A stretch of 63,383 nt of DNA, counting the filler, from Chrysochromulina tobinii (taxonomy: Eukaryota): NCBI GenBank assembly GCA_001275005.1. It is 8 parts of 8 records of this genome, joined end to end, with 100 filler letters (N's around TTAATTAATTAA, not from the genome) between each part and the next. Parts side by side here need not be neighbours in the genome. Positions count along the whole stretch, not along the records: positions 24,927 to 40,398 come from JWZX01000301.1; 7 more parts are not named here. The stretch is one strand, 5' to 3'. The stretch's first letter is position 1, and each line of letters opens with the position of its first letter. Below, piece after piece: positions 23,628 to 50,200 of the stretch. The position numbers and the translations under genes were made by a program. The notes under the pieces are model-generated. The model had not been told where the DNA came from, made no database searches, and saw only the letters and a list, made by a program, of their open reading frames with translations.

Positions 23628-24826
23628 TCACATGGATACGGCACAAAAACAACTCCTCTCTGTGATGAGCGCCATGCTGGCCATTGCCACCCACTCGTCC
23701 TTCGCCGGATCGTACTGCTCGACGGAGCTGAACCGGCCTTGGCCGTCATAGCCGCCCATCACATACAGCTTGCCATCAGACACCGCCGCCGCCGAAGCGG
23801 CTCGTGCCGTGGACATCGGTGCGACTGCCTCCCAGGCATTCTTCGCCGGATCGTATCGCTCGACGGAGCTGAGCAGGTGTTGGTGGTCATAGCCGCCCAT
23901 CACATACAGCTTGCCATCAACCACCGCCGCCGCCGGAGCGTCTCGTGCCATGGACATCGGTGTGACTGCCTCCCAGGCATTCTTCGCCGGATCGTACCGC
24001 TCGACGGAGCTGAGCGACTCATCATCTGCATCCATGCCGCCCATCACATACAGCTTGCCATCAACAACCGCCGCCACCAAACCGATTCGTGCCGCGGACA
24101 TCGGCGCGACTGCCTCCCAGGCATTCTCCTCCGGATCGTACCGCTCGACGGAGCTGAGCGACTTATCATTATCATCTGCACCATTGCCGCCCATCACATA
24201 CAGCTTGCCATCAACCACCACCGCTGCCGAACAGAATCGTGCCGTGGGCATCGGTGCGACTGCCTCCCAGGCATTCTCCTCCGGATCGTACCGCTCGACG
24301 GAGCTGAGCGACTTATCATTATCATCTGCACCATTGCCGCCCATCACATACAGCTTGCCATCAACCACCGCCGCTGCCGAACAGAATCGTGCCGTGGGCA
24401 TCGGTGCGACTGCCTCCCAGGCATTCTCCTCCGGATCGTACCGCTCGACATAGCTGAGCGACATATCATCTGCACCATTGCCGCCCATCACATACAGCTT
24501 GCCATCAACCACCGCCGCCGCCGGAGCGCATCGTGCCGTGGACATCGGCGCCATCGCCTCCCACACATTCGCCATGGAGTCGTACCTGTAAAAGGTGGCC
24601 AACGCATCACCGCCATTGGCGAGCCCGCCCACAATGTAGAGCTTCTCAAAGCCCACACGACGACGCGCCGAGTCGCCATGCAGTGCGCCAAGCAAGGACT
24701 GACTAAGCACCTGCATGCCAGCAAATGTCCTCAGCAATGGCTCGTTGTGCACCGTCTCTTGCACAAACTCGCGACTCAGCAGCGGAAAGCGCACCAGCCG
24801 AAGCAGTGCCAGCGCGTCGTCCTCGG
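23628..24826 (-). CDS. Kelch-repeat protein (probably BTB-BACK-Kelch), 5' truncated, 7 Kelch repeats
   Basis: End of a BACK domain (VRFPLLSREF), then repeats of LYVMGG...SSVERYDP..NAWEAVAPM..AR....AAVVDGK. Confidence 0.92.
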
Positions 24827-24926: not shown

Positions 24927-27791
24927 CCCTTCGGCGGAGCCACTCGACGAGCCTCTCGACGAGCCCGTTGTGGCGGAGGAGGATCCGGCAGCAGCCTTGG
25001 CCCAAGCGGCAGCAGCCCAGGCCGAGACGCCCCAAGATTGGCTGCCCCCCACCCCCCGCGCATTGGCGCCCATCCCACTGCTGCCCATCGTACTGCCAAC
25101 GTGGTCGCCCATGCCCGTACGCGTGCGCCACGTCATCTTTTGGAGCGCCTCGCGCACCTCCGAGATCGAGGGCAGCCGTTGGACGGCCGAGTTGTGCAGC
25201 CAGGCGAGCATCTGCGAGACTTCGTGCAGCTCCTCGAGCGACACGGCGTGCCCCGGCTCGTACGCACGCGGGTTGATGGCGAGCGACTGCACGAAATCGA
25301 GCGCGGGCACCTTGCCAAGGATCGAGCAGTAAAAGGCATCAGAGGTCATCAGGGAGGTCATCAGGAAGGTCATCAGAGGTCATCATGGGTCATCAGAGGT
25401 CATCAGAGGTCATCAGAGATCATCATAGGTCATCAGAGGTCATCAGAGGTCATCAGAGGTCATCAGTGGTCGTCAGAGATCATCAGAGGTCATCAGGGAG
25501 GTCATCATGAACCCTCACCTTGCCGAGGATCTTCGAGTGCAAATCGACGCAGTGCTCGGCGCCCCGAAGCGCGTCCGCACTTTCCATATTTGGGGCGCGG
25601 CAATGCAGGTAGTGCAGAGCGACGCACTCGTCAGAGCGCCCCTTGTAATTGAGCGGATGCACCGTCGAGAGCGGCGAGGCACACCGGCGCTGGTGCGCCC
25701 ACGCCTCGCACACGCTCTCTGCCGTCCGGAGAGGCAATCAGAGGCAATCAGAGGCAATCAGAGGCAATCAGAGGCAATCAGGGGCAATCAGAGGAGAGGT
25801 CCACGCCTCGCACACGCTCTCTGCCGTCCGGAGAGGCAATCAGAGGCAATCAGAGGCAATCAGAGGCAATCAGAGGCAATCAGAGGCAATCAGAGGAGAG
25901 GTCCACGCCTCGCACACGCTCTCTGCCGTCCGGAGAGGCAATCAGAGGCAATCAGAGGCAATCAGGGGCAATCAGAGGAGAGGTCCACGACTCGCACACG
26001 CTCTCTGCCGTCCGGAGAGGCACTGTGCCGTCACAAGAGGTCATCAGAGGCAATCAGAGGTCCTCATCAGAGCTCATCAAAAAGCAGCTCCTCACCTGCC
26101 GACCGGAGAGGCACCGTGCCGTCACCGTCCTCATACTGAGTGACGCAAGGTTCCTCGTTCATATTCTTAGGCCACGGCTCCGTGTACAGGAAAGAGGTCT
26201 GCGTGGGCTTGCCGGAGCCCATGTAGCACACGACGGGGATCGGTGGCGCACGCCAGATGTCGAGGAGCTCAAGGGAGGCATCGTACGCCGCCACCATCTC
26301 GCTCTTCGCGTCCGTGGGCGAGTACCTGACAAAGGAGGCAATCATCAGAGGTCATCAGAGGTCATTAGCCTTGCTCTTCGCGTCCGTGGGCGAGTACCTA
26401 ATGATGATGGGCGCCATCAGAGCTCATCAGATGGCAGAGCTCACCAAGATGGTGATGATAGGCGCACTCAGAGCTCATCAAGATGGTGATGATGGGCGCA
26501 CTCAGAGCTCATCAGCGCTCCTCAGCGGCACGCATTCGCCATCAGAGGCAATCAACTTACGCTTCGATTTTTCGTAAGAGACGACGCAGATCCGCGCGCG
26601 TGCCTCGATAGTACTCGGCACCAAATACGGACGCCGCGCCGTCGGCGCCCGTCGCGGCGCGCCCGCCATAGCGCGGCAGAGTTGACGCCCCGATCAGAGG
26701 TGCATCGCCTCCATGGAGCGACAAGATGGTCGTGTTGCCCCAGACGCGTTCATGGGGGAGCAGCATGAAGGCCGAGCCCATCTTGCGAGAAAAGTCACGT
26801 GTCTCTGCATTGGAGATGAGCAGATGCGCGGCGACCAGGGCAGTCGGACGCAATCAGGTATTGCAGGGTGCACGGATTGCTGCACGGACGTGTACACTCC
26901 GAGGTACACTCAGAGGTACAATCAGAGGTAGTGGGCTTCTAGGGGCGTCTGATATCAATCTTCAACAAATCGGTTCCTCACTCGGCACCTTTCGGCACGC
27001 TCGGAATGATTTGGCAATTCATCCTTCGCCACGGAGGTGCAATCAGAGGTGCAATCAGAGGTGCAAGCAGAGGTGCAATCAGAGGAGCCCTCGCCTGCAT
27101 CGGTGATGATCATTCGAGAGACCATCTCGGCGCCGGAGAGGAGGACCCGCGCGACCTGCGGCGAGCCCGCGAACGGCGGGGCGATCGCGACGAGCGCGCG
27201 CATCAGCGACGTCGTCTCCGGCCCAAACACCTTTTGGATGCAGTAGAGGATCTGAAGATTGCCGAGCGAGTGGCCAACCACAATCGCCTTGCGGTGGGCA
27301 GTGTCATTCGTGGCGAGGTGCAGCGTGCGCGCCAGATCGGCACACAGCTTATTCTCCGTCGGAGGCAGCCGCCAGTCAAAGGGAACGCCGAACAGATTCG
27401 TGCCCGCACGGAAGCCGGCGCGCTCGAGCTGCCCAATCATGTCCCAATACACCTTGGCCGTCGAGACGCACTCGCGCCCGACCTTGAGCAAGCATGCGAC
27501 ACCCTTGATGCCAAAGTTGGTGAAGTCTGGCTCGATGCGATGGCCAGGGCGGGGCGCCTTCGGATCGAGGGAGGCCACCCAGTCGAAGTAGAGCGACGCA
27601 CTCAGCGGTCCCATGGCTGCGGAGCGCTGCAGTAATCGATGTGACTCCGGAAGCCAGAGATGGCGTGACACTGTCTCGATCGATCCCGGCAAACGCACGT
27701 GCTCTCGCAGCCTGCTGCCCATAACGCCCGGCACTAGAATGACGGGTTGGCAAGCGCCTCGGGCGTTGCAAGCCGGCCCAGGCGCCGACAT
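24927..27791 (-). CDS. LCAT/group XV phospholipase A2 family acyltransferase; introns 26805-27094 (GC-AG), 26326-26560, 25719-26095, 25311-25518; 3' truncated
   Basis: PVILVPGVMGSRL, LFGVPFDWRL, VVGHSLG nucleophile elbow, IAPPFAGS, EDGDGTVPLRSAESVCEAW. All four splices restore one frame. Start may be 27791 or 27839. Confidence 0.88.
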
Positions 27792-36003: not shown

Positions 36004-37903
36004 CTACTCGCCCGGCTTGCGCTGCGCGTCGCGCCACACGTCTGACTCGAGGCGCTGTCCCGAGCCGATCTGAGCACTCTCAGTCGCTTCGACGACGGCG
36101 CGCATGCCGTCGGTTACACGGCGCAGCTCAGCGGCGGTCATGATGAAGGGGGGCATGGTGTAGAGCAGACGCCCAAAGGGTCTAAGCCACACGCCTCTCT
36201 CAACGAGCATCGCGCTCACGGTAGGCATGTGGATGGGCTCCTTCATCTCCACCACCCCAATGGCGCCCAGCACGCGCACGTCCTTGACAGCCGACGAGGC
36301 GGCCAGCGGGCGCAGCTCAGCCTCGAGCTGCGCCGAGATTGCACGCACACGCGCCTGCCAGGGGGTTGCGAGCAGCAGCTGCACGGATGCATGCGCCACC
36401 GCGCATGCCAGAGGGTTGGCCATGAAGGTGGGGCCGTGCATCAACGGCACCGGCCGCACGGCACCGCGCCCGCCCGAGGCTCCTTCGGCGACGGCATCGG
36501 TGGCGAGGGTCGCACCCATTGTGAGGTATCCTCCGGTGAGAGCTTTGCCGAGGCAGAGGATATCCGGTGCGATCCCCGCGTGGTCGCAGGCGAACAGCGC
36601 GCCAGTCCTTCCAAAGCCGGTGGCGATCTCGTCCAAGATGAGGAGCACGCCTGATGAAGGAGGCAATCAGGGAGGCGATTAGAGAGGCAATCAGGTGGCG
36701 ATCTCGTCCAAGATGAGGAGCTCGCCTGATGAGGGAGGCCATCAGACGGTCGCACAGGTCAGGCCTGATGAGGGAGGCCATCAGACGGTCGCACAGGTCA
36801 GGCCTGATGAGGGAGGCCATCAGACGGTCGCACAGGTCACAGCACAATCTCAAAATCTCAATCTCTCAAAATCTCAAAAGCCACCAGAGCCGGGCATACG
36901 AGGCACGCGGAGGCCCTCAAATGCCAGCAGAGGTCACACGAGGCAAGCACAAGCAGCGTTCGGAGCCGCTTCCATATTAGGCAAGCACAAGCAGCGTTCG
37001 GAGCCGCCTACCGTGCTGATTGCAGAGCTCTCGCACGCGCCGCAAATAGTCTGCCGAGTAGAAATGCATGCCGCCCGCGCCCTGCACGATCGGCTCGAGG
37101 ATCACCGCCGCGAGCTCGTGCTCGTGCTCGCGCAGCATCGTCGCAAACTCCTCGACGTCCTTCTCAGCACAAGGCTGCCCGAAGAGCGGAGCTGGGCGCG
37201 GCGCGAAGAGATGCTTCGCGAGCACGCCGCCAAACATCTCGGCATGCATGCCATTGACCGGGTCGCACACGGCCATCGCACCGAACGTGTCGCCGTGGTA
37301 GCCGCCGCGCACTGTCAGCAGGCGCGAGCGCCCCTCGATGCCGCGCGCGCGCCAGTACTGTAGCGCCATCTTGATCGCGACCTCGACGGCGATCGAGCCG
37401 GAGTCGCAAAGGAACACGCGCTGCAGCGGCTCGGGCGTGACCTGGACGAGCAGTTCGGCGAGCCGTACAGCCGGCCGGTGAGTCAGCCCACCGAACATGA
37501 CGTGCGCCATCGAGCCCAGCTGCTGCGACGCGGCCTCGTCCAGCTCAGGCACCGCGTAACCGTGCACGGCAGCCCACCATGAGGACATTCCGTCGATGAG
37601 CTCGCGGCCGTCCTCGAGGGTGAGCGTCACACCTGAGGCGTGCGATACCGCGAGGCACGGCACGGGCTGCGTCGCGCTGGTGTACGGGTGCCACAGCCGC
37701 CGTACATCGGCTGCAAGCAGTCTTTCGGTCGCGAGCGAGTTGTCGCGGTCAGCGTTGGCGCCGGCGGTCGCGTCGATGCGAGCGTTGAGGTACGGACACG
37801 ACCGGCTGCGGTCGGCCTGCGTGCTCAGTGTTCGGCGCGTACTGCAGCAGGGCGGTGGCCGTGCCAGCCAGCGCGCAGTCTGACGGAAAAGGTTGCGACG
37901 CAT
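36004..37903 (-). CDS. bioA: Adenosylmethionine-8-amino-7-oxononanoate (DAPA) aminotransferase, with a predicted mitochondrial presequence; intron 36651-37011
   Basis: [65 protein letters not shown] (PLP Lys), [13 protein letters not shown]. Arg-rich, acid-free N-terminus. Confidence 0.93.
36724..36839 (-). repeat. 3 x 39-bp tandem repeat in the bioA intron, each ending in an acceptor-like CCTCCCTCATCAG
   Basis: GCCTGATGAGGGAGGCCATCAGACGGTCGCACAGGTCA repeated three times on +. Confidence 0.9.
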
Positions 37904-39704: not shown

Positions 39705-40398
39705 TGCCGAGAGCAAGATAAGCAGCGTTGATCGAGAGAGCGTTGCCGCGCAGCTGCGGCGGCGAGCGTCACACCCGACAGGGCGATCAGCGGTGCACAC
39801 GCGAGCAGCGAGCGGCCTGTGCCGCTCAAGCTTCCGAGAGCGAGAGCAGCAGCTTCATCGAGAGCGTTGCCGACGCAGCTGCGCACACCCGACAGGGAGA
39901 TGAGCCGTGCAGACACCGAGCACCGAGCGGCCTGTGCCGCTCAAGCTTCCGAGAGCGAGAGCAGCAGCGTTGATCGAGAGCGTGGCCGACGCAGCTTCGG
40001 CGGCGAGCGTCACACCCGACAGGGCGATCAGCGGTGCAGACACCGAGCAGCGAGCGGCCTGTGCCGCCCAAGCCTCCGAGAGCGAGGGCAGCAGCGTTGA
40101 TCGAGAGCGTGGCCGACGCAGCTTCGGCGGCGAGCGTCACACCCGACAGGGCGATCAGCGGTGCAGACACCGAGCAGCGAGCGGCCTGTGCCGCCCAAGC
40201 CTCCGAGGGTGAGAGCAGCAGCTTTGATCGGGAGCGTTGCCGATGCAGCTGCGGCGCGGCGAAGCGGCATTGATCGAGACTGTTGCCGACGCAGCTGCGG
40301 CGGCGAAGCGGCGTTGATCGAGAGCGTTGCCGACGCAGCTGCGTCGGTGAGCTTCACATCCGACAGGGCGATCAGCGGTGCAGACACCGAGCAGCGGG
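39705..40398. repeat. Minisatellite with 127-bp period (about 5 degenerate units), running into the gap
   Basis: GTGCAGACACCGAGCA recurs at 39907, 40034 and 40161 (127-bp spacing), with variant units on either side. Confidence 0.9.
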
Positions 40399-40498: not shown

Positions 40499-43400
40499 GG
40501 GCGCCGGCGGCGCGGCGGACGGCGACTCACCGGTCGGATCCGCAAACGTGGACAGGAGCGCGTTCGTCGCGGAGTCGACGTGACCATCTGCCTCCGCGAG
40601 GGCCTTGGCCGCTCTCTCCTTGGAGAACCCCATGTCGACGAGCTGCTGGACCTTGGGCGGCAGAGCCGTTCGGGGGGAGCCGGCGAGGCGGAAGGAGCCG
40701 TTACGTGTCAAGGTGCCGCTGCGCGTCGACAGGCGCACCGGCGCTGCCGCGGGCGCGCCAGGCGCCGTCCCGGGCGCCATGGGTGCAAGCGCGCCGGCCG
40801 TCCTATCCTCGTCCTCGTCGGCACTCCCGATGAGGGCCGCGACCGCTTTGCTCAGATCATTGGCGTGAGCCTCGAGGGCGGCGCATGCCTGGTCGCGACT
40901 GAAGCCCATGTCCATCAGCCGCTTCCGTTCGGGCGGGTCGGCGTCATGCTGGGCGCCCAGCGCGCCATGCTGGGCGCCCAGCGCGCCCTCGGCGGCATGC
41001 ATCGGTGCCTGCATCGGCGCATGCATCTCGGGCGTGGGCGCGCGCATGGGCGCGGCCTGGTGCGCCGTGAGGAGCGCCGCCTCCTCGTCCTTTTGAATAC
41101 GCAGCTGATCGCGCTCGCTCTGGCGCAGCGCCGCGTGCTCATTCGCGCGCTCAAACTGCTCGTCCAGAGTGGCGTGCTCACGTGAGAGCTTGGCCACCGC
41201 GTCCGAGGCGAGGGCGCGCAGCGAGGCGTACGTGTCGGCGGCGAGGCGCAGCCGCTTGAGGTACTCCTGCTTCTCCATGCACTCTGTGTCGCTGATGCGC
41301 GCCTGTGTGAACTCGGCGTTCGTCGCGACGAGCGTGCTCAGGACACGCTCGTACTCACTCACCAAGGCTGCGGCCTCGGCCTGCACGGGCGCGAACTTGC
41401 CCAGGTGTGCACGCACCACGTCCATTGGAGGTGTGTCACCACAGTAGATGAGCGCGTTGATGAGGGACTGCCCAGGCACAGGGGCGGGGCGAGCAGGGCG
41501 AGATGCTGGGAGATGGGGCGGAGGTCAGGGGAGATCAGGGGAGATCATAGGAGATCAGGGGAGATCAGGGCCGCGAGAGGGGCAGTCTCAGTTTGGGGCG
41601 TGGATCCACTTTGGGGGGCAGTCTCAGGGGGGGGAAGGGGGGGAAGGGGGAGAAGGGGTGGGAAGGGTGCATGCCCATGCCGTGCAAGCCTGCATGAAGG
41701 CAAGCACCTGATCGTGGGCGGCACGCTGCACGAAGAGGTCGATGGGCGCGGGGGCGAGCGATCGGATGAGGTCGGAGGCTTGCTGATGGAAGGTCGCTTC
41801 CTCGTCGTTGATCTTGAGGATGATATCTCCGACGTTCACACCTGCCTTTGCCGCTGGTCCGTCGGGCTCGCACGAGGCGACACGCACGCCTTGCTCTTCC
41901 TTGGGGGTGTCGACGAGGATCATGCCTACGAGCCCGTCCGCATTACGCTCGATACGAATCGATCTCGTCAATCCGATCATTGACGAAGCGCGCAGAGTGA
42001 GCGCGTCGCGCGTCGTCTTGAGCGTCTCGAGCTGGTCGAGCTGCTCGCGCAGCGTGCGAAAGACGGGCAGCTTGGCCACAGGAGAGCCCCCCGCGTGAGG
42101 CAGCTGATCGATCAGGTCGGCCATGCTGAGCTCGAGCATGCTCAGCTCGCCTGATGAGGGAGGCAATCCATCTAATTAGGGAGGCAATCAAAGGCCATGC
42201 TGAGCTCGAGGGTGCTCAGCTCGCCTGATGAGGGAGGCAATCGAGATGCACTCAGAGATGCACGCAGCCAAGCTGGACGCCTGCCCACACGAGAGCACTC
42301 ACTCGACTCACCAGTGGCCGCCTCGGCGAATCCACTCGCCAGGTCCGCGTACAACCTCGCTGCGCAGGCGACCTTGTCCTCGGACGCGCTCAGCACGGCG
42401 CGAATGGCCGTGATGGTCGCCGCGCCGTCCGATGCGAGCAGTTCCCATTCGGGTCCAAACTCGCGCCGCATTTGGACTTCGCGCTCGTCCTCGAGCGCGA
42501 GAAGCTCGCCCACCTGATGAGGGAAGCAATCAATCGCGTCATCAGAGGTCATCCGAGGTCATCCGAGGTCATCAGAGGTCATCAGAAGTCATCAGAAGTC
42601 ATCCGAGGTCATCCGAGGTCATCAGAGGTCATCAGAGGTCATCAGAGGTCATCTCGAGAGTGTCGCCCACTGATGAGGCAGGCAATCGGGCACACTCACC
42701 AGTCTGATGAGGGAGGCAATCGGGCACACTCAGCGGCAATCATCGCTCGTCAGCAGCTCGCTCACCTCGGCCGCGCGCGTGGCGCACTGCTTGATGAGGA
42801 GCGACGCCTTGGCCACCTGATCATGGAGGCGATCAATGGCGTCATCAGAGGCAATCAGTTCTCATCGGCCACCTCCGTTCGCAATCAATGGCGTCATCAG
42901 AGGCCATCAGTGGCGTCACCAGAGGCCATCAGTGGCGTCATCAGAGGCCATTTTCTCATCAGCCACCTCCGTTCGCAGCGCAGGCACGCCGCCGTTGGCA
43001 TGCGCCGCCCCAATTGAATCGCGAAGCTCCCTTGGCAACCCCTCGCCTGTGGGGAGAGGAGGGGGGGGGCGCCGTGGTGAGCACTTGCATGCACGCCAAT
43101 TGAGTCGCGAAGCTCCCTTGTTGACCCCTCGCCTGTGGGGAAGGCGGGGCGCCGTGGTGAGCCCTCGCCTGTGTCGGCCTCCACGGCTTGCAACGCCCAC
43201 GGCAGGTCGTTGTCTCGCAGCACGCCCTCGCCGTGCGCGACCGCCTGTGCGAGCTGCTCCTGCAGCGCGCTCACGAGGGCGCGCTCGAGCTCATCGTACT
43301 CGACGAGCAGCGCGCGCGTCGCCTGGGGCACGATGAAAACGAACGGATCCTCCGTCGCTAGCAGCGGCGCGGTGAGCGCCGTCGTGGGCGTCGGCTTGGA

Positions 43401-45068: not shown

Positions 45069-46569
45069 ATGATCGCGACGCTCATCAAATGTGTAACGGA
45101 GAAGACCAGCGCCCACAGCGGCGCATCAATCGATTGGGTCGCCTTTTCCCAAGACGGGACCAAGCTTGTCTCGGGATCGGATGACACTAGAGGGAAATAC
45201 AGTAGGTGTCCCGGGATCAAAGTCTGGGATTCGGGTGCGCTGTCCCCTCAAATCGCGCCTCCTTGGCCAAAACTGACCCCTGCTGGCTTGTCTGGCAGAT
45301 GCGCTGGGGCTGTTGAGCGAGAAGACGAACGTCCACAGCGTTATCCACAGCGCGGACCTCAGCTCGGTCGCGTTCTCCCCGGACGGGACCAAGATTGTGT
45401 CGGGATCGGCTGACAGGACGATCAGAATCTGGGACTTGGGTGCGCCGCGAGCCCTCAAAATCGCCCCTCCTTGGCCAAAACTGACGACTGTTGGCTTGCC
45501 TGGCAGATGCCCTGGGGCTGTTGAGCGAGAAGACGAACGCGCACGGCTACTCCATCAGGTCGGTGGTATTTTCCCCGGACGGGACCAAGATTGTGTCAGG
45601 ATCGTCCGATGGGACGATCAGGGTCTGGGATTCCGGTGCGCCGGAGCCCTCAAAATCGACCCTCCTTGGCCAAAACTGACCCCTGCTGGCTTCTCTGGCA
45701 GATGCGCTGGGGCTGTTGAGCGAGAAGACGGACGCGCACAGCGCCCGGGTCATGTCAGTGGCATTTTCCCCGGACGGGACCAAGATCGTGTCTGGATCGG
45801 CTGACAAGACGATCAAAGTCTGGGATTCAGGTGTGCGCCGGAGCCCTCAAAATCGCCCCTCCTTGGCCAAAACTGACGACTGTTGGCTTGTCTGGCAGCT
45901 TTGGAGCTGATCAGCGAGAAGATGAATGCCCATAGCACTTATATCTTCTCAGTGGCGTTTTCCCCGGACGGGACCAAGATTGTCTCTGGATCGGGCGACA
46001 GGACGATCAAAGTATGGGATTCGGGTGCGCCGGAGCCCCCAAAATCGCCCCTCCTTGGCCAAAACTGACGCCTGTGCTGGCTTGTCCGGCAGATGCGCCG
46101 GGACTGTTGAGCGAGAAGCCGAACGCGCACAGTCTCTACATCCACTCGGTGGCGTTTTCCCCGGATGGCACCAAGATCGTGTCCGGATCGGCCGACAAGA
46201 CGATCAAAGTTTGGAATTTGGGTGCGCCGAGCCCTCAAAATCGCCCCTCCTTGGCCAACACTGATGCCTGCTGGCTTGTCCGGCACAGATGCGCTGGAGC
46301 TGGTGCTGATGAGCAAGAAGTCGAAAGCCCATAAGAGCACCGTTAATTCGGTGGCGTTTTCGCCCGATGGGACCAAGATCGTGTCGGGATCGAACGACGG
46401 GACGATCAAAGTCTGGGAAATGGTCGAGTGGTCTCGCAAAGATCATTTGATGTTCAACATCGCCACCCAGCGATTTGTCTTGCGGCTGCTGTGGCTGAAC
46501 AAGTACAGCATGAAGTTTCCTGATGATGTGCTTGATCTGCTCGTTCGAGCTTGCTTGCAAAGCAGGTGA
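45069..46569 (+). CDS. Seven-bladed WD40 protein, one repeat per exon (45069-45234, 45299-45439, 45507-45635, 45702-45830, 45899-46024, 46093-46221, 46289-46569), with a C-terminal F-box-like tail
   Basis: Repeats of H....[22 protein letters not shown]. Six phase-1 GT-AG introns of 64-68 nt restore a single frame. Confidence 0.9.
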
Positions 46570-47206: not shown

Positions 47207-50200
47207 TTAGGCTGCTGCTGCGGCCTGGACCTCCCGTTGACGCCGCTCGCGATTACGGATCGTACGCTGCAGCCAGCGCACCGCAAACTTGCGAGCCTGC
47301 TGTTCTGCGTGCTGTGCGCGGATAGAGCGACCCGCCATGCGAGCATGCAATTTGCTCAGCGTCTCCTGCCGTGTGCGCTCCTGCTGTCGCAGGCGCGCGG
47401 CCGCCTCGGCTGCCTCCTTCGCGGCCGCCTCGGCAATCGCCTGCTGCTCGTTGCGCCGCCTTGCAGCAGCGTCCCTTGCGGCCGTTGCGGCCGCCGCGCG
47501 CTGCGCCGGCGTCTCACCCTGTCTGACCGCCGTCGTCGCCACATCAGTCGGCTCGTCAGTCGCCACGTCAATTGCAAAAGAAAGTGCCATGTCAGTCGGC
47601 TCGTCCGCCGCGCACTGCACCGGGACATCGCTCTGCACGTCTGCCGCGGCCGCCACGTGCTTCGCACCCGAGTCATCCACCCCCGCCATATCCGACGCAC
47701 CATCCACATCTTCAACGTCTGCGCCGAGCTCGGTCGCGTGCGCTTCAAGGTCGATCACGTCAACCCTTGAAGCGGAGTGTGCAATTTTGTCGACCCTGTC
47801 CGCGCGGCCATCGTTGCGGCCATCCCCGCGGCTCGAACGCCCGCGCGCCCGCGATTGCAGACGCGTCGCCGCTGCCTCCTTCTCGTCCATCCCCGCGCCA
47901 CCCTCATCCGCCTGATTGCCACCCTCATCCGCCTGATTAGGGGCGTCATCCGCCTGATTTGGGGCGGCGGTCCTCGCATCTCTGCTACTGGCAAGCCGCT
48001 GCGCGTCGGCAAGCCGCTGCGCGTCGGCAAAGTGTTGCGCGTCGGCAAAGTGCTGCACGTTGGCAAGGCAGCCGCGCGCAAACGGATCAAGTATCGGGTC
48101 GTTGAGCTCGATGATCGCCTGCAGCCGCTCGAGCCCGCCACAGCGCTTTAGCTGCTCGACACACGTGATCTCGGTGCACAGGTTCTGAAGGGCACCTAGG
48201 GCGTACACCAGGGTCAGCCGGTCCTGGTCATCAGCGAAGAGGTGCGGCAACACGAGGCCGAAGGCGCCCGCCGCCCTGAGTAGCGCCTTCGTCTCCTCGG
48301 CGTGCGGGTCGACAGCCTCGCATGCAAGGTCGGCCACGAGCATGAGGGCCATCCGATGCACCTGATGAAGGAGGCAATCGTGAGTCATCAGTGATCATCA
48401 GAGGTCATCAGCCACGAGCATGAGGGCCATCCGATGCACCTCGGCTGAGGGGTTTCCAAGCAGCCCGACGATGAGCTCGACGCCGCCCGTGGCGCGCAGG
48501 CCCTCGCACAGCGCGATCGCATCGTCGCCGTAGCTGCCGTTGGCAAGCAGAGCGAGCTGGTGCAGCGCCTTGCCCTTGTCCGCCTCGCTGCTGCTGCTCA
48601 GCCGAAGAACTCCGACGAGACCCATCAGCTCCCGCGCGGGCGTCTGCACGGGGGGTAGCTCTGGTCGAGCTTCGACCGCTTCCGGAAGACGAGCGGTGCT
48701 TTCCACGGCCGTGTGCGCCGCAGCTGCTTGCATGATCGCCCATCCTCGCTTCCATTCATCCAGGTCAATGTCGCCGTTGTCGTCGATGTCGAGTTCGGCG
48801 TCGAGGCTGCTAAGCACCTCCTCCTTCACGTCGCCGCGCTGGCGCAGGTATTCCTTCATCGATTCGATCGGGATGCGGGCCGATCCCTCGGCCACGACCT
48901 TGAACAGACTCTCAGCGACCAGAAGATCCATTTCCGAGGCGGGTGGAACAGGCTCTGTTTCGCCCTTGGGCTTGGCAGACGGTGCTACGGCCACCGGCGC
49001 GGCGCCGGCGGCGGATCCCTTAGGCAGCTGCCGCGCGGGGGGGCGAAGGGCCGCTGCGGCGGAGGCGGGTGTGGCCACCGCCTGCGCGGTGCTGATTGGC
49101 AGCACGAGCGGGAGGATGCGTGGCGAGCGGGAGTGAATCTCGGAGTGTATCTCGGAGGCAAGCGGGAGGATGCGTGACGAGCGGGAGTGTATCTCGGAGG
49201 CAAGCGGGAGGATGCGTGGCGAGCGGTACACTCCCTCGGAGCCGCCGTGCACGTGGCCGAGGGGTAGGTCGAGGGGCGTGCCGTCGGAGGCGATCGGCAC
49301 GATCTGAAAGGGAGCGTACTTTCTCGTGATCGACGGCGGAGCTGTCCATGCGCCGTCGTGAGCGCCGTCGTCGCCGTCCACTACGTCCACGCTCTTCGTC
49401 CGATTGCGACATCGCTTGGACACAAAGAACCACGAGAGGAAAGCGACAGCGAGGAGGACGATCAGGCCCAGGATCGCCGCCACGCTCGCCGGCAGCTCCT
49501 CGGGAGCTACGTCGATCTGACCGTACTCGGCCGTTAAAAGGGGCATGCCCAATACGGCGCTCTCGCCCCCAGGGAATAGCCACGCGGAGGCCGCGCTCGC
49601 ACTCGCGACGGCCGGGGCGAGGGCCCCATACACAAGCGCCGCCGCCGGCACCGAGGAGACCGTGATCGTCGCGTCGATGACCATCGAGGCAGCGCCGAAC
49701 CTCAGCTGGACGGCATCGCTTGGCACGGAAGCGGTGGTGGCGATGGTGCTTTGCATGTCGCTCCGCCGCAGCTCATCGAACGCGCTCAGCTCGGCGTCGC
49801 ACACGACGCGCAGCCGGATGAGTACGGAGCGTAACGTCTCCCAGCTTCTCAAGGGCGGCAGCGTGGCCACCGTTGTCGTCGGGCGGCTGGCCTCGCCCGC
49901 CGCGCGGCAATACATCGGCTCATGGATCGTCACAGGCGGCTCTGCGCGTGTCGCAACGGCAGCCGCGCACCGCGCCGCATCGCCCTCCCAGCCAGCGCAC
50001 CCAAAGTTGACAGCAGCACGGTCGAGGCAACCATACACACGCGCGTAGCAGCTGCCGTCATTCACGGTCGCGTGCGCGTCGAAGTTGATCGCCGACGGCG
50101 TCGTGCATCCGTACCGCTCCCACCGGCACATCGAGGGCACATGCACCGTCGCCGCCGCGTTGTACGTGGCGGAGCCCCCAAAGTCGACCCTACGGCCGAC

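What the first reader, a model, noticed from the sequence alone, without database searches (positions are those of the whole stretch)
36618..36839. Stacked insertions at existing acceptors create AG|GY zero-length exons (possible recursive splicing), with donor-improving substitutions
SEEN: inside the bioA intron an internal CCTCCCTCATCAG (AG 36726-36727) is followed by a 32-bp copy of the next exon start, then decamers and the real acceptor (36651-36652). The copy reads GCGAGCTCC where the exon reads GCGTGCTCC, i.e. its single difference makes a better GCGAG donor. The same design occurs at 26326-26397 (AG|GTACTC), 42151-42224 (AG|GCGAGC) and 43047-43132 (AG|GCGAGG). At 42765 the duplicated donor reads GTGAGC versus exon GTGGGC. 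At 26398 and 36726, using only the inner acceptor reads into a stop. INFERENCE: the process re-targets its own junctions, and these compact introns may be removed in two recursive steps. Recursive splicing is known mainly from very long animal introns.
Basis: partly seen in the sequence, partly recalled or inferred. Interest (0 to 1): 0.75.

Follow-up and report, generated by a model that had tools for sequence, protein, structure and literature searches.

The report
Stacked intron insertions in an alga
In the alga Chrysochromulina, many introns contain a copy of the start of the next exon plus a shared repeat ending in a splice acceptor; repeated events of this kind likely stack back-to-back splice sites as a by-product, and the intron is likely cut out in one step rather than two.

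Summary
The anatomy is real: inside the bioA intron an acceptor (36726) is followed by a 32-nt copy of exon 2's start, decamers and the true acceptor (36651). The organism is Chrysochromulina tobinii-like. The design is genome-wide: 162 of 364 such acceptors in related DNA have a 10-76-nt upstream copy of their own exon start (control 5), and one such intron is absent in near-identical strains. Stacks come from tandem doubling or repeated insertion. The 'donor-improving' claim fails: inner copies change at donor positions no more than elsewhere (10/276 vs 24/696; 2 up, 1 down, 4 neutral). Recursion is not needed: bioA holds two more near-perfect acceptors that must be skipped, and 36 of 64 stacked introns have no usable inner site. 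One RNA contig joins straight to the outer acceptor at 26326, but contigs cannot show intermediates. For recursion: inner units are intron-sized (median 78 nt). Verdict: intron-gain process with long variable duplications, noted before by this scan on other DNA (e1-2577349); recursion unproven, about 0.22.

The parts
37012..37903 (-). bioA (aminotransferase class III) exon 1
   Evidence: ORF; PF00202 model 8-223; identical to C. tobinii KOO53277.1
36651..37011 (-). bioA intron, 361 nt, GT donor 37011-37010, outer acceptor 36652-36651
   Evidence: junction not seen in RNA (table cut, depth low)
36724..36839 (-). three 39-nt tandem copies of the acceptor cassette; AG at 36804, 36765 (followed by GCCTGA) and 36726 (followed by GCGAGC)
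   Evidence: all three read into stops
36694..36725 (-). 32-nt copy of exon 2 start, one mismatch at +4
   Evidence: spanned by DNA contig
36651..36693 (-). decamer-type cassette ending in the outer acceptor
36004..36650 (-). bioA exon 2 (first 32 nt are the original of the copy)
   Evidence: PF00202 model 225-402
26326..26560 (-). LCAT-like gene intron, inner AG at 26398, outer unit 26397-26326 (72 nt)
   Evidence: RNA contig of X11 joins the flanking exons in one joint; weak PF02450 hit (E 4.5e-4, under cut-off)
25719..26095 (-). next intron of the same gene: three inner AG|AG acceptors (26005, 25923, 25821) made of copies of both exon ends; no GY after them
   Evidence: only 25719 keeps the frame; array not spanned by a listed contig
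42151..42311 (-). inferred intron with inner AG at 42225 and 74-nt outer unit
   Evidence: inferred from frame, no RNA
42514..42765 (-). inferred intron whose true donor is a 14-nt copy of the next exon start (GTGAGC vs GTGGGC)
   Evidence: no RNA
43047..43168 (-). inferred intron of the second cassette family: 36-nt first unit (43168-43133) and 86-nt outer unit (43132-43047)
   Evidence: no RNA; the 36 nt could also stay in the mRNA in frame
48362..48439 (-). single-unit intron of the same design (copy supplies GT donor, cassette supplies acceptor)
   Evidence: inferred

Best explanation
The bioA site is one of many stacked units made by what is likely an active intron-creating process in Chrysochromulina, and its back-to-back AG|GC is likely a by-product that the spliceosome likely skips in a single step. 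Shown: each unit is a 10-76-nt direct copy of the exon sequence beginning at GT or GC, followed by decamer repeats and a shared 3' end (CCCTCATCAG, or a second family ending CCCCACAG); alone, the copy supplies the donor and the cassette the acceptor; such units are present in some strains and absent in others. Inferred: a staggered break is filled in (giving the copy) with filler templated from the common intron 3' end. Shown: stacks arise as near-exact doublings (17 of 43) or carry a different cassette (26 of 43). Because about 80% of exons after these acceptors already begin with GY, any second event at the same junction yields AG|GY. Inferred: the last acceptor is chosen directly, perhaps because an AG closely followed by decamers is not read as an exon start; the A at +4 in bioA is one ordinary mutation (or a relic of a time when that unit was the whole intron).
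For: Copy frequency and controls. GT/GC after 244 of 316 cassette acceptors. Empty site: 3 of 15 listed members of the ProRS cluster (47 members) read through the junction while keeping a downstream intron, 8 end in the copy, 4 do not cover it; 9 differences in 565 aa to L006. bioA and NDUFS1 relatives read through their junctions. No substitution bias in 46 inner copies. Inner GT hexamers no more donor-like than other exon starts (1.69 vs 1.78, p=0.39). 36 of 64 introns with inner cassette acceptors have none usable as a recursive site (non-GY or unit under 55 nt), 26 all usable, 2 mixed (about 4 of the 36, including 42151, are split by a short sub-repeat and are arguably mixed). bioA must skip 36804 and 36765 even on the recursive route. 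Coding examples with non-GY inner acceptors: L017 (six AG|GG), L044 (AG|GA), window 26005-25821. Mature RNA uses the outer acceptor at 26326. At a second ProRS intron the outer unit is the older, stand-alone intron and the 69-nt unit 5' of it is missing in 4 and present in 3 sequences, which explains intron-sized outer units without recursion in that class.
Against: Inner units with a different cassette have the length of stand-alone introns (median 78, n=23, vs 80, n=43; KS p=0.74) and copy and cassette lengths offset each other (rho -0.39, p=0.065 with all 23; -0.55, p=0.008 and SD permutation p=0.0014 after dropping one 145-nt unit; 1 of 23 under 60 nt vs 3.1 expected, p=0.087), while they look younger than stand-alone units: this is what selection for separate splicing would give. 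Inner GC hexamers are more donor-like than other GC exon starts (2.55 vs 1.68, n=11 vs 31, p=0.025; 2.38, p=0.11 without the three window sites). Long inner units are GY in 37 of 40 vs 164 of 202 (p=0.11). A mature junction says nothing on the path, the bioA junction itself was not seen in RNA, and no RNA was laid on the 42-43 kb gene. Loci were fetched by the cassette motif, so frequencies are not genome-wide rates. The break-and-filler step is inferred; no enzyme or template was found.
Confidence: 0.66

Rival explanations
1. Recursive splicing: short-intron definition pairs the donor with the inner acceptor, regenerates a GY donor and removes the 60-90-nt outer unit in a second step (or outer unit first); long stacks survive only if each unit can be spliced.
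For: Every long GY stack is formally two complete introns back to back; GCGAG is a real donor here (RNA joint at 27094); intron-sized inner units and length offset; stronger inner GC hexamers; 26 of 64 stacked introns have only usable inner sites; at the second ProRS intron the old donor keeps its old upstream context.
Against: No substitution bias; inner GT hexamers not stronger; 36 of 64 stacked introns cannot use the route; first or second steps of 36-39 nt at 43168, L006, L051 and in bioA; long non-GY stacks exist (L076, window 26005-25821); no intermediate among the 15 of 127 joints shown (weak).
Confidence: 0.22
2. The units are copies of a true mobile element (SINE-like, target-primed reverse transcription of an intron-derived RNA) rather than break-repair filler; stacks are still by-products. 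This rival concerns only how a unit is made.
For: Fixed 3' end, ragged 5' end, long variable duplications, slight excess of microhomology at the copy/cassette joint (mean 0.72-0.98 vs 0.36-0.38); cassette depth about 1000-fold over single copy; unit from one family stacked on an acceptor of the other (L027).
Against: Only about 19 nt are shared, the rest is locus-specific minisatellite; no poly(A) tail, inverted ends or enzyme seen in the units read; mirror-image units that copy the upstream exon end also occur (window 26095, 25518; L006), which a one-way element explains poorly.
Confidence: 0.25
3. Assembly artefact from repeats.
For: Arrays of 39-102 nt period are not spanned by listed contigs.
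Against: Single DNA contigs span the bioA and 26 kb copies; copies differ from exons; the design recurs in many assemblies and lakes and varies between strains.
Confidence: 0.02

Closest known systems
Introners / introner-like elements that carry the 3' splice site and take the 5' site from the target duplication (Symbiodinium, Polarella glacialis classes 4, 5, 6, 8, 10; PMC9860276 and bioRxiv 10.1101/2020.10.14.339549, passages read)
   Same: Acceptor brought in, donor recruited from duplicated exon, mRNA unchanged, many loci.
   Different: Duplications there are 3-9 nt and fixed per class; here 10-76 nt and variable; body is minisatellite, not a conserved element. The Chrysochromulina sp. 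introner in PMC9860276 has a 4-nt duplication and carries the donor. C. tobinii is listed with 0 introner families in a supplement row of PMC12130899 (files 13-14 not searched).
Intron gain by staggered double-strand-break repair in Daphnia pulex, including staggered-then-staggered secondary inserts (PMC4202315, passages read)
   Same: Direct repeat of adjacent exon at the far end of a new intron, presence/absence among populations, repeated hits in new introns.
   Different: Repeats there are 4-12 bp and inserts unrelated; here longer repeats and one recurring acceptor cassette.
Intron gain by tandem genomic duplication of AGGT-bearing exon (PMC3443670, passages read)
   Same: Duplication puts AG|GT-like sites in series; explains the 17 doubled stacks and the mirror-image units.
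   Different: Here the acceptor mostly comes from added cassette, not from the duplicated exon.
Recursive splicing at zero-nucleotide ratchet points (Drosophila, bioRxiv 10.1101/006163; human, PMC10156609; passages read)
   Same: Intronic AG|GY juxtaposition.
   Different: Those are shown by intermediates and lariats, are conserved, and lie in kb-long segments; here 60-90-nt units, young, polymorphic, no intermediates shown.
Fungal stwintrons (search listings and abstract starts only)
   Same: Short introns removed by consecutive reactions; sequence-similar families that spread.
   Different: There the inner intron splits a splice signal so two steps are forced; here units abut and one step suffices.

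Membership tests
Recursive splice site (ratchet point) | Intronic acceptor directly followed by a donor (AG|GY) | tested here: met
Recursive splice site (ratchet point) | Reads joining upstream exon to the inner site; lariats of the sub-introns | not testable with these tools
   only contigs of RNA runs were available; none among 15 of 127 joints shown
Recursive splice site (ratchet point) | Regenerated donor stronger than decoy sites | tested here: inconclusive
   GT no (p=0.39), GC weakly yes (p=0.025; 0.11 without window sites); substitution bias not met
Recursive splice site (ratchet point) | Conservation of the site across species | tested here: not met
   bioA relatives at 79-87% identity read through the whole intron position; a ProRS stack differs between strains. 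Whether close strains share the bioA inner unit was not seen.
Introner (DNA-transposon type) | Recent gain at new positions with splice sites from insert and target | tested here: met
   empty ProRS site in near-identical strains; NDUFS1 and bioA relatives lack the introns
Introner (DNA-transposon type) | Short fixed-length target duplication | tested here: not met
   10-76 nt, variable
Introner (DNA-transposon type) | Family of end-to-end similar intron sequences | tested here: not met
   shared part is the last ~19 nt and decamer motifs; rest differs per locus
Introner (DNA-transposon type) | Terminal inverted repeats / mobilising enzyme | not tested
   none evident in units read by eye; no whole genome held
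Stwintron | Inner intron interrupts a donor, branch point or acceptor of the outer one | tested here: not met
   units abut at AG|GY; outer donor and acceptor are intact

The most novel reading that the evidence does not exclude
An intron-making process that keeps hitting its own junctions builds zero-length exons, and the alga removes these 60-90-nt units one after another, so that recursive splicing is created wholesale by intron gain in a compact genome and is what lets stacked insertions survive.
Probability: 0.22. Interest if true: 0.8.

Novelty: new variant of a known kind. Interest (0 to 1): 0.5.

Why it matters
A culturable alga with ongoing, strain-polymorphic intron gain by a route that introner surveys missed (0 families listed for C. 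tobinii) makes the origin of new introns directly testable by strain comparison. The stacks also pose a clean splicing question: introns with up to seven near-identical acceptors must use the last one. If two-step removal were shown, it would extend recursive splicing to 70-nt units and tie its origin to intron gain. The stacks also mislead gene models (KOO53277.1 carries six extra residues at this junction).

Tried and rejected
No whole genome was held. The cassette motif gave 0 hits in viral contigs. A motif-free scan for repeat pairs was swamped by coding repeats and replaced by acceptor-anchored parsing. Pairwise alignment of five overlapping locus pairs showed decamer copy-number changes (80 nt, 10 nt) but no empty intron site. 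A first substitution count dropped bioA through a filter error and was redone. L069 was first read as a non-GY stack of exon-start copies; it is a repeat of the upstream exon end and was set aside, with L044 and L064, before the length tests on 23 units. Gapped identity did not separate doubled from new cassettes, so the 17/26 split rests on ungapped identity. F-versus-inner divergence within 16 stacks was uninformative (6, 3 and 8 shared changes in 260 sites). Absence of RNA cover or joints at bioA is not used as evidence. Literature: searches listed no paper describing this intron design in Chrysochromulina (titles and abstract starts only); the genome paper PMC4580454 mentions introns once (passages); the supplement of PMC9860276 is cut in storage, bioRxiv supplements and subscription papers were not seen. 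Scan notes: nothing for recursion or relatives.

Full report
Setting. The window is eukaryotic DNA (63% GC) made of contigs separated by N runs; no whole genome was held. Both bioA exons are identical in translation to Chrysochromulina tobinii KOO53277.1, and a C. parva model of 512 aa joins them at the outer acceptor. Pfam PF00202 ends at model position 223 in exon 1 and resumes at 225 in exon 2, so the intron is 37011-36651.

Observation. All coordinates check. The inner acceptors read into stops (11 codons at 36726; 14 at 26398). DNA contigs of one run span the bioA and 26 kb copies at depth about 40, and decamer arrays draw depth up to 45,000, so the cassette is genome-wide. One RNA contig (X11) joins 26561 to 26325 in one joint, i.e. 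the outer acceptor; the bioA junction is not among the 15 of 127 joints shown and RNA depth there is low. No RNA was laid on the 42-43 kb gene.

What it is. After cassette acceptors the exon begins GT or GC in 244 of 316. Of 364 clean terminal acceptors 162 have an upstream copy of their own exon start, against 5 in each of three shuffles and 32 of 345 for exon sequence 60 nt further in. In 92 of 120 first copies the copy begins GT or GC and is the apparent donor; copies are 10-76 nt long and most single units are 66-88 nt. A further 34 of 154 acceptors without a long copy have a 6-9-nt one (control 4%). A second cassette family ends in CCCCACAG, and mirror-image units copy the upstream exon end. 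Gain is recent: at a ProRS gene 3 of 15 listed cluster members (47 in all) read through the junction yet keep a downstream intron, 8 stop in the copy, 4 do not cover it, with 9 differences in 565 aa (partly spliced RNA is a weaker alternative, contigs are 2.8-4.8 kb). NDUFS1 relatives (up to 78% identity, contigs to 19 kb) and bioA relatives (79-87%) read through their junctions.

Stacks. 64 of 364 introns hold inner cassette acceptors. Among 43 stacks with an exon copy (4 more skipped), 17 have an outer cassette at least 0.9 identical to the sequence before the inner AG (doubling, likely by misalignment of the repeats) and 26 do not (new cassette; bioA, 42151 and 43047 among them). The other order also occurs: at a second ProRS intron a 69-nt unit 5' of an older intron is present in 3 and absent in 4 sequences.

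Donor-improving changes. In 46 unique inner copies from 41 stacks, mismatches are 10/276 at +1 to +6 and 24/696 at +7 to +30 (p=0.85); 7 hexamers differ: 2 up (bioA is one), 1 down, 4 neutral on a simple U1-match score of my own. True donors show only a trend (10 up, 4 down, 6 neutral of 92; p=0.18).

Is recursion needed? No. In 36 of 64 stacked introns no inner site is usable (non-GY, or unit under 55 nt), in 26 all are, 2 are mixed (about 4 of the 36 are split by short sub-repeats). L017 has six AG|GG sites, L044 AG|GA, and the window's own LCAT-like gene three AG|AG sites, each out of frame or stopped (arrays not independently spanned). In bioA the first step of a recursive route would itself skip two near-identical acceptors. 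So last-acceptor choice is a general ability here (inferred from frames, shown by RNA at one site only as the end product).

What speaks for recursion. New-cassette inner units match stand-alone introns in length (median 78 vs 80) with copy and cassette lengths offsetting (p=0.065 for all 23, 0.008 without one outlier; 3 non-GY cases had been set aside); inner GC hexamers are more donor-like (p=0.025; 0.11 without the window's three); long inner units are GY in 37 of 40 (p=0.11). GCGAG is a real donor in this alga (27094). These could also come from the insertion mechanism or from outer units having been stand-alone introns. I put regular two-step removal at about 0.22.

Mechanism committed to. 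Staggered break at a G|GY site, fill-in giving the copy, filler templated from the common intron 3' end (inferred; slight microhomology excess); survival where donor and length allow splicing; second hits and doublings give AG|GY; single-step splicing to the last acceptor.

Comparison. It works like acceptor-carrying introners (PMC9860276, bioRxiv 10.1101/2020.10.14.339549; passages) and like staggered-break intron gain in Daphnia (PMC4202315; passages), but fails the fixed short duplication and end-to-end family tests; C. tobinii is listed with 0 introner families (PMC12130899 supplement row) and appears in the PMC9860276 supplement only once, in the list of surveyed genomes (file cut). It meets only the AG|GY feature of ratchet points (bioRxiv 10.1101/006163, PMC10156609; passages). 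Searches listed no description of this design. This scan had noted the single-unit family on another piece of the genome (e1-2577349); new here are the stack analysis, the empty site and the test of the recursion claim. The labels BRO1/PDZ, LCAT motif and sialidase-like are recalled, apart from the weak LCAT Pfam hit.

Noticed in passing
window 36765-36803 and 36726-36764; protein P0126 (KOO53277.1): The public C. tobinii model has six extra residues (LTCLTC) at this junction, matching two 9-nt micro-exons called inside the 39-nt repeats; the C. parva model has none. Likely a gene-prediction error caused by the stack.
   Followed up: partly
window 25312-25518 and 25719-26095: Mirror-image design: the acceptor is supplied by a copy of the upstream exon end; the 26095 intron holds copies of the spliced exon-exon junction.
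   Followed up: partly
window 43133-43168: 36-nt unit is in frame and stop-free; it could stay in the mRNA as 12 extra residues with the donor at 43132.
   Followed up: no
L006 9960-10110 and about 8850-9010 (minus strand), ProRS: A 38+38-nt doubled intron absent in three near-identical sequences; a second intron with a polymorphic 69-nt unit stacked on its donor.
   Followed up: yes
L069 (minus strand 2890-3310): Four internal 20-nt pseudo-exons (AG...GT) repeating the upstream exon end in a PDZ-like gene (label recalled); all must be skipped.
   Followed up: partly
L002/L004, L050/L106: Decamer arrays differ by 80 nt and 10 nt between strains: unstable minisatellites.
   Followed up: partly
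window 36004-37903: Stand-alone bioA whose next relatives after a few algal sequences are bacterial at 63-69% identity; several relatives have DCIATG in place of DEIATG.
   Followed up: no
window 27094 and 30994: RNA-supported introns: a GC-AG intron of 290 nt and a GT-AG intron of 165 nt without the cassette end.
   Followed up: partly
window 39766-40343; 23747-24570; 45215-46418: High-copy 127-nt repeat (DNA depth about 10,000) and long coding-type tandem repeats of 150 and 197 nt period.
   Followed up: no
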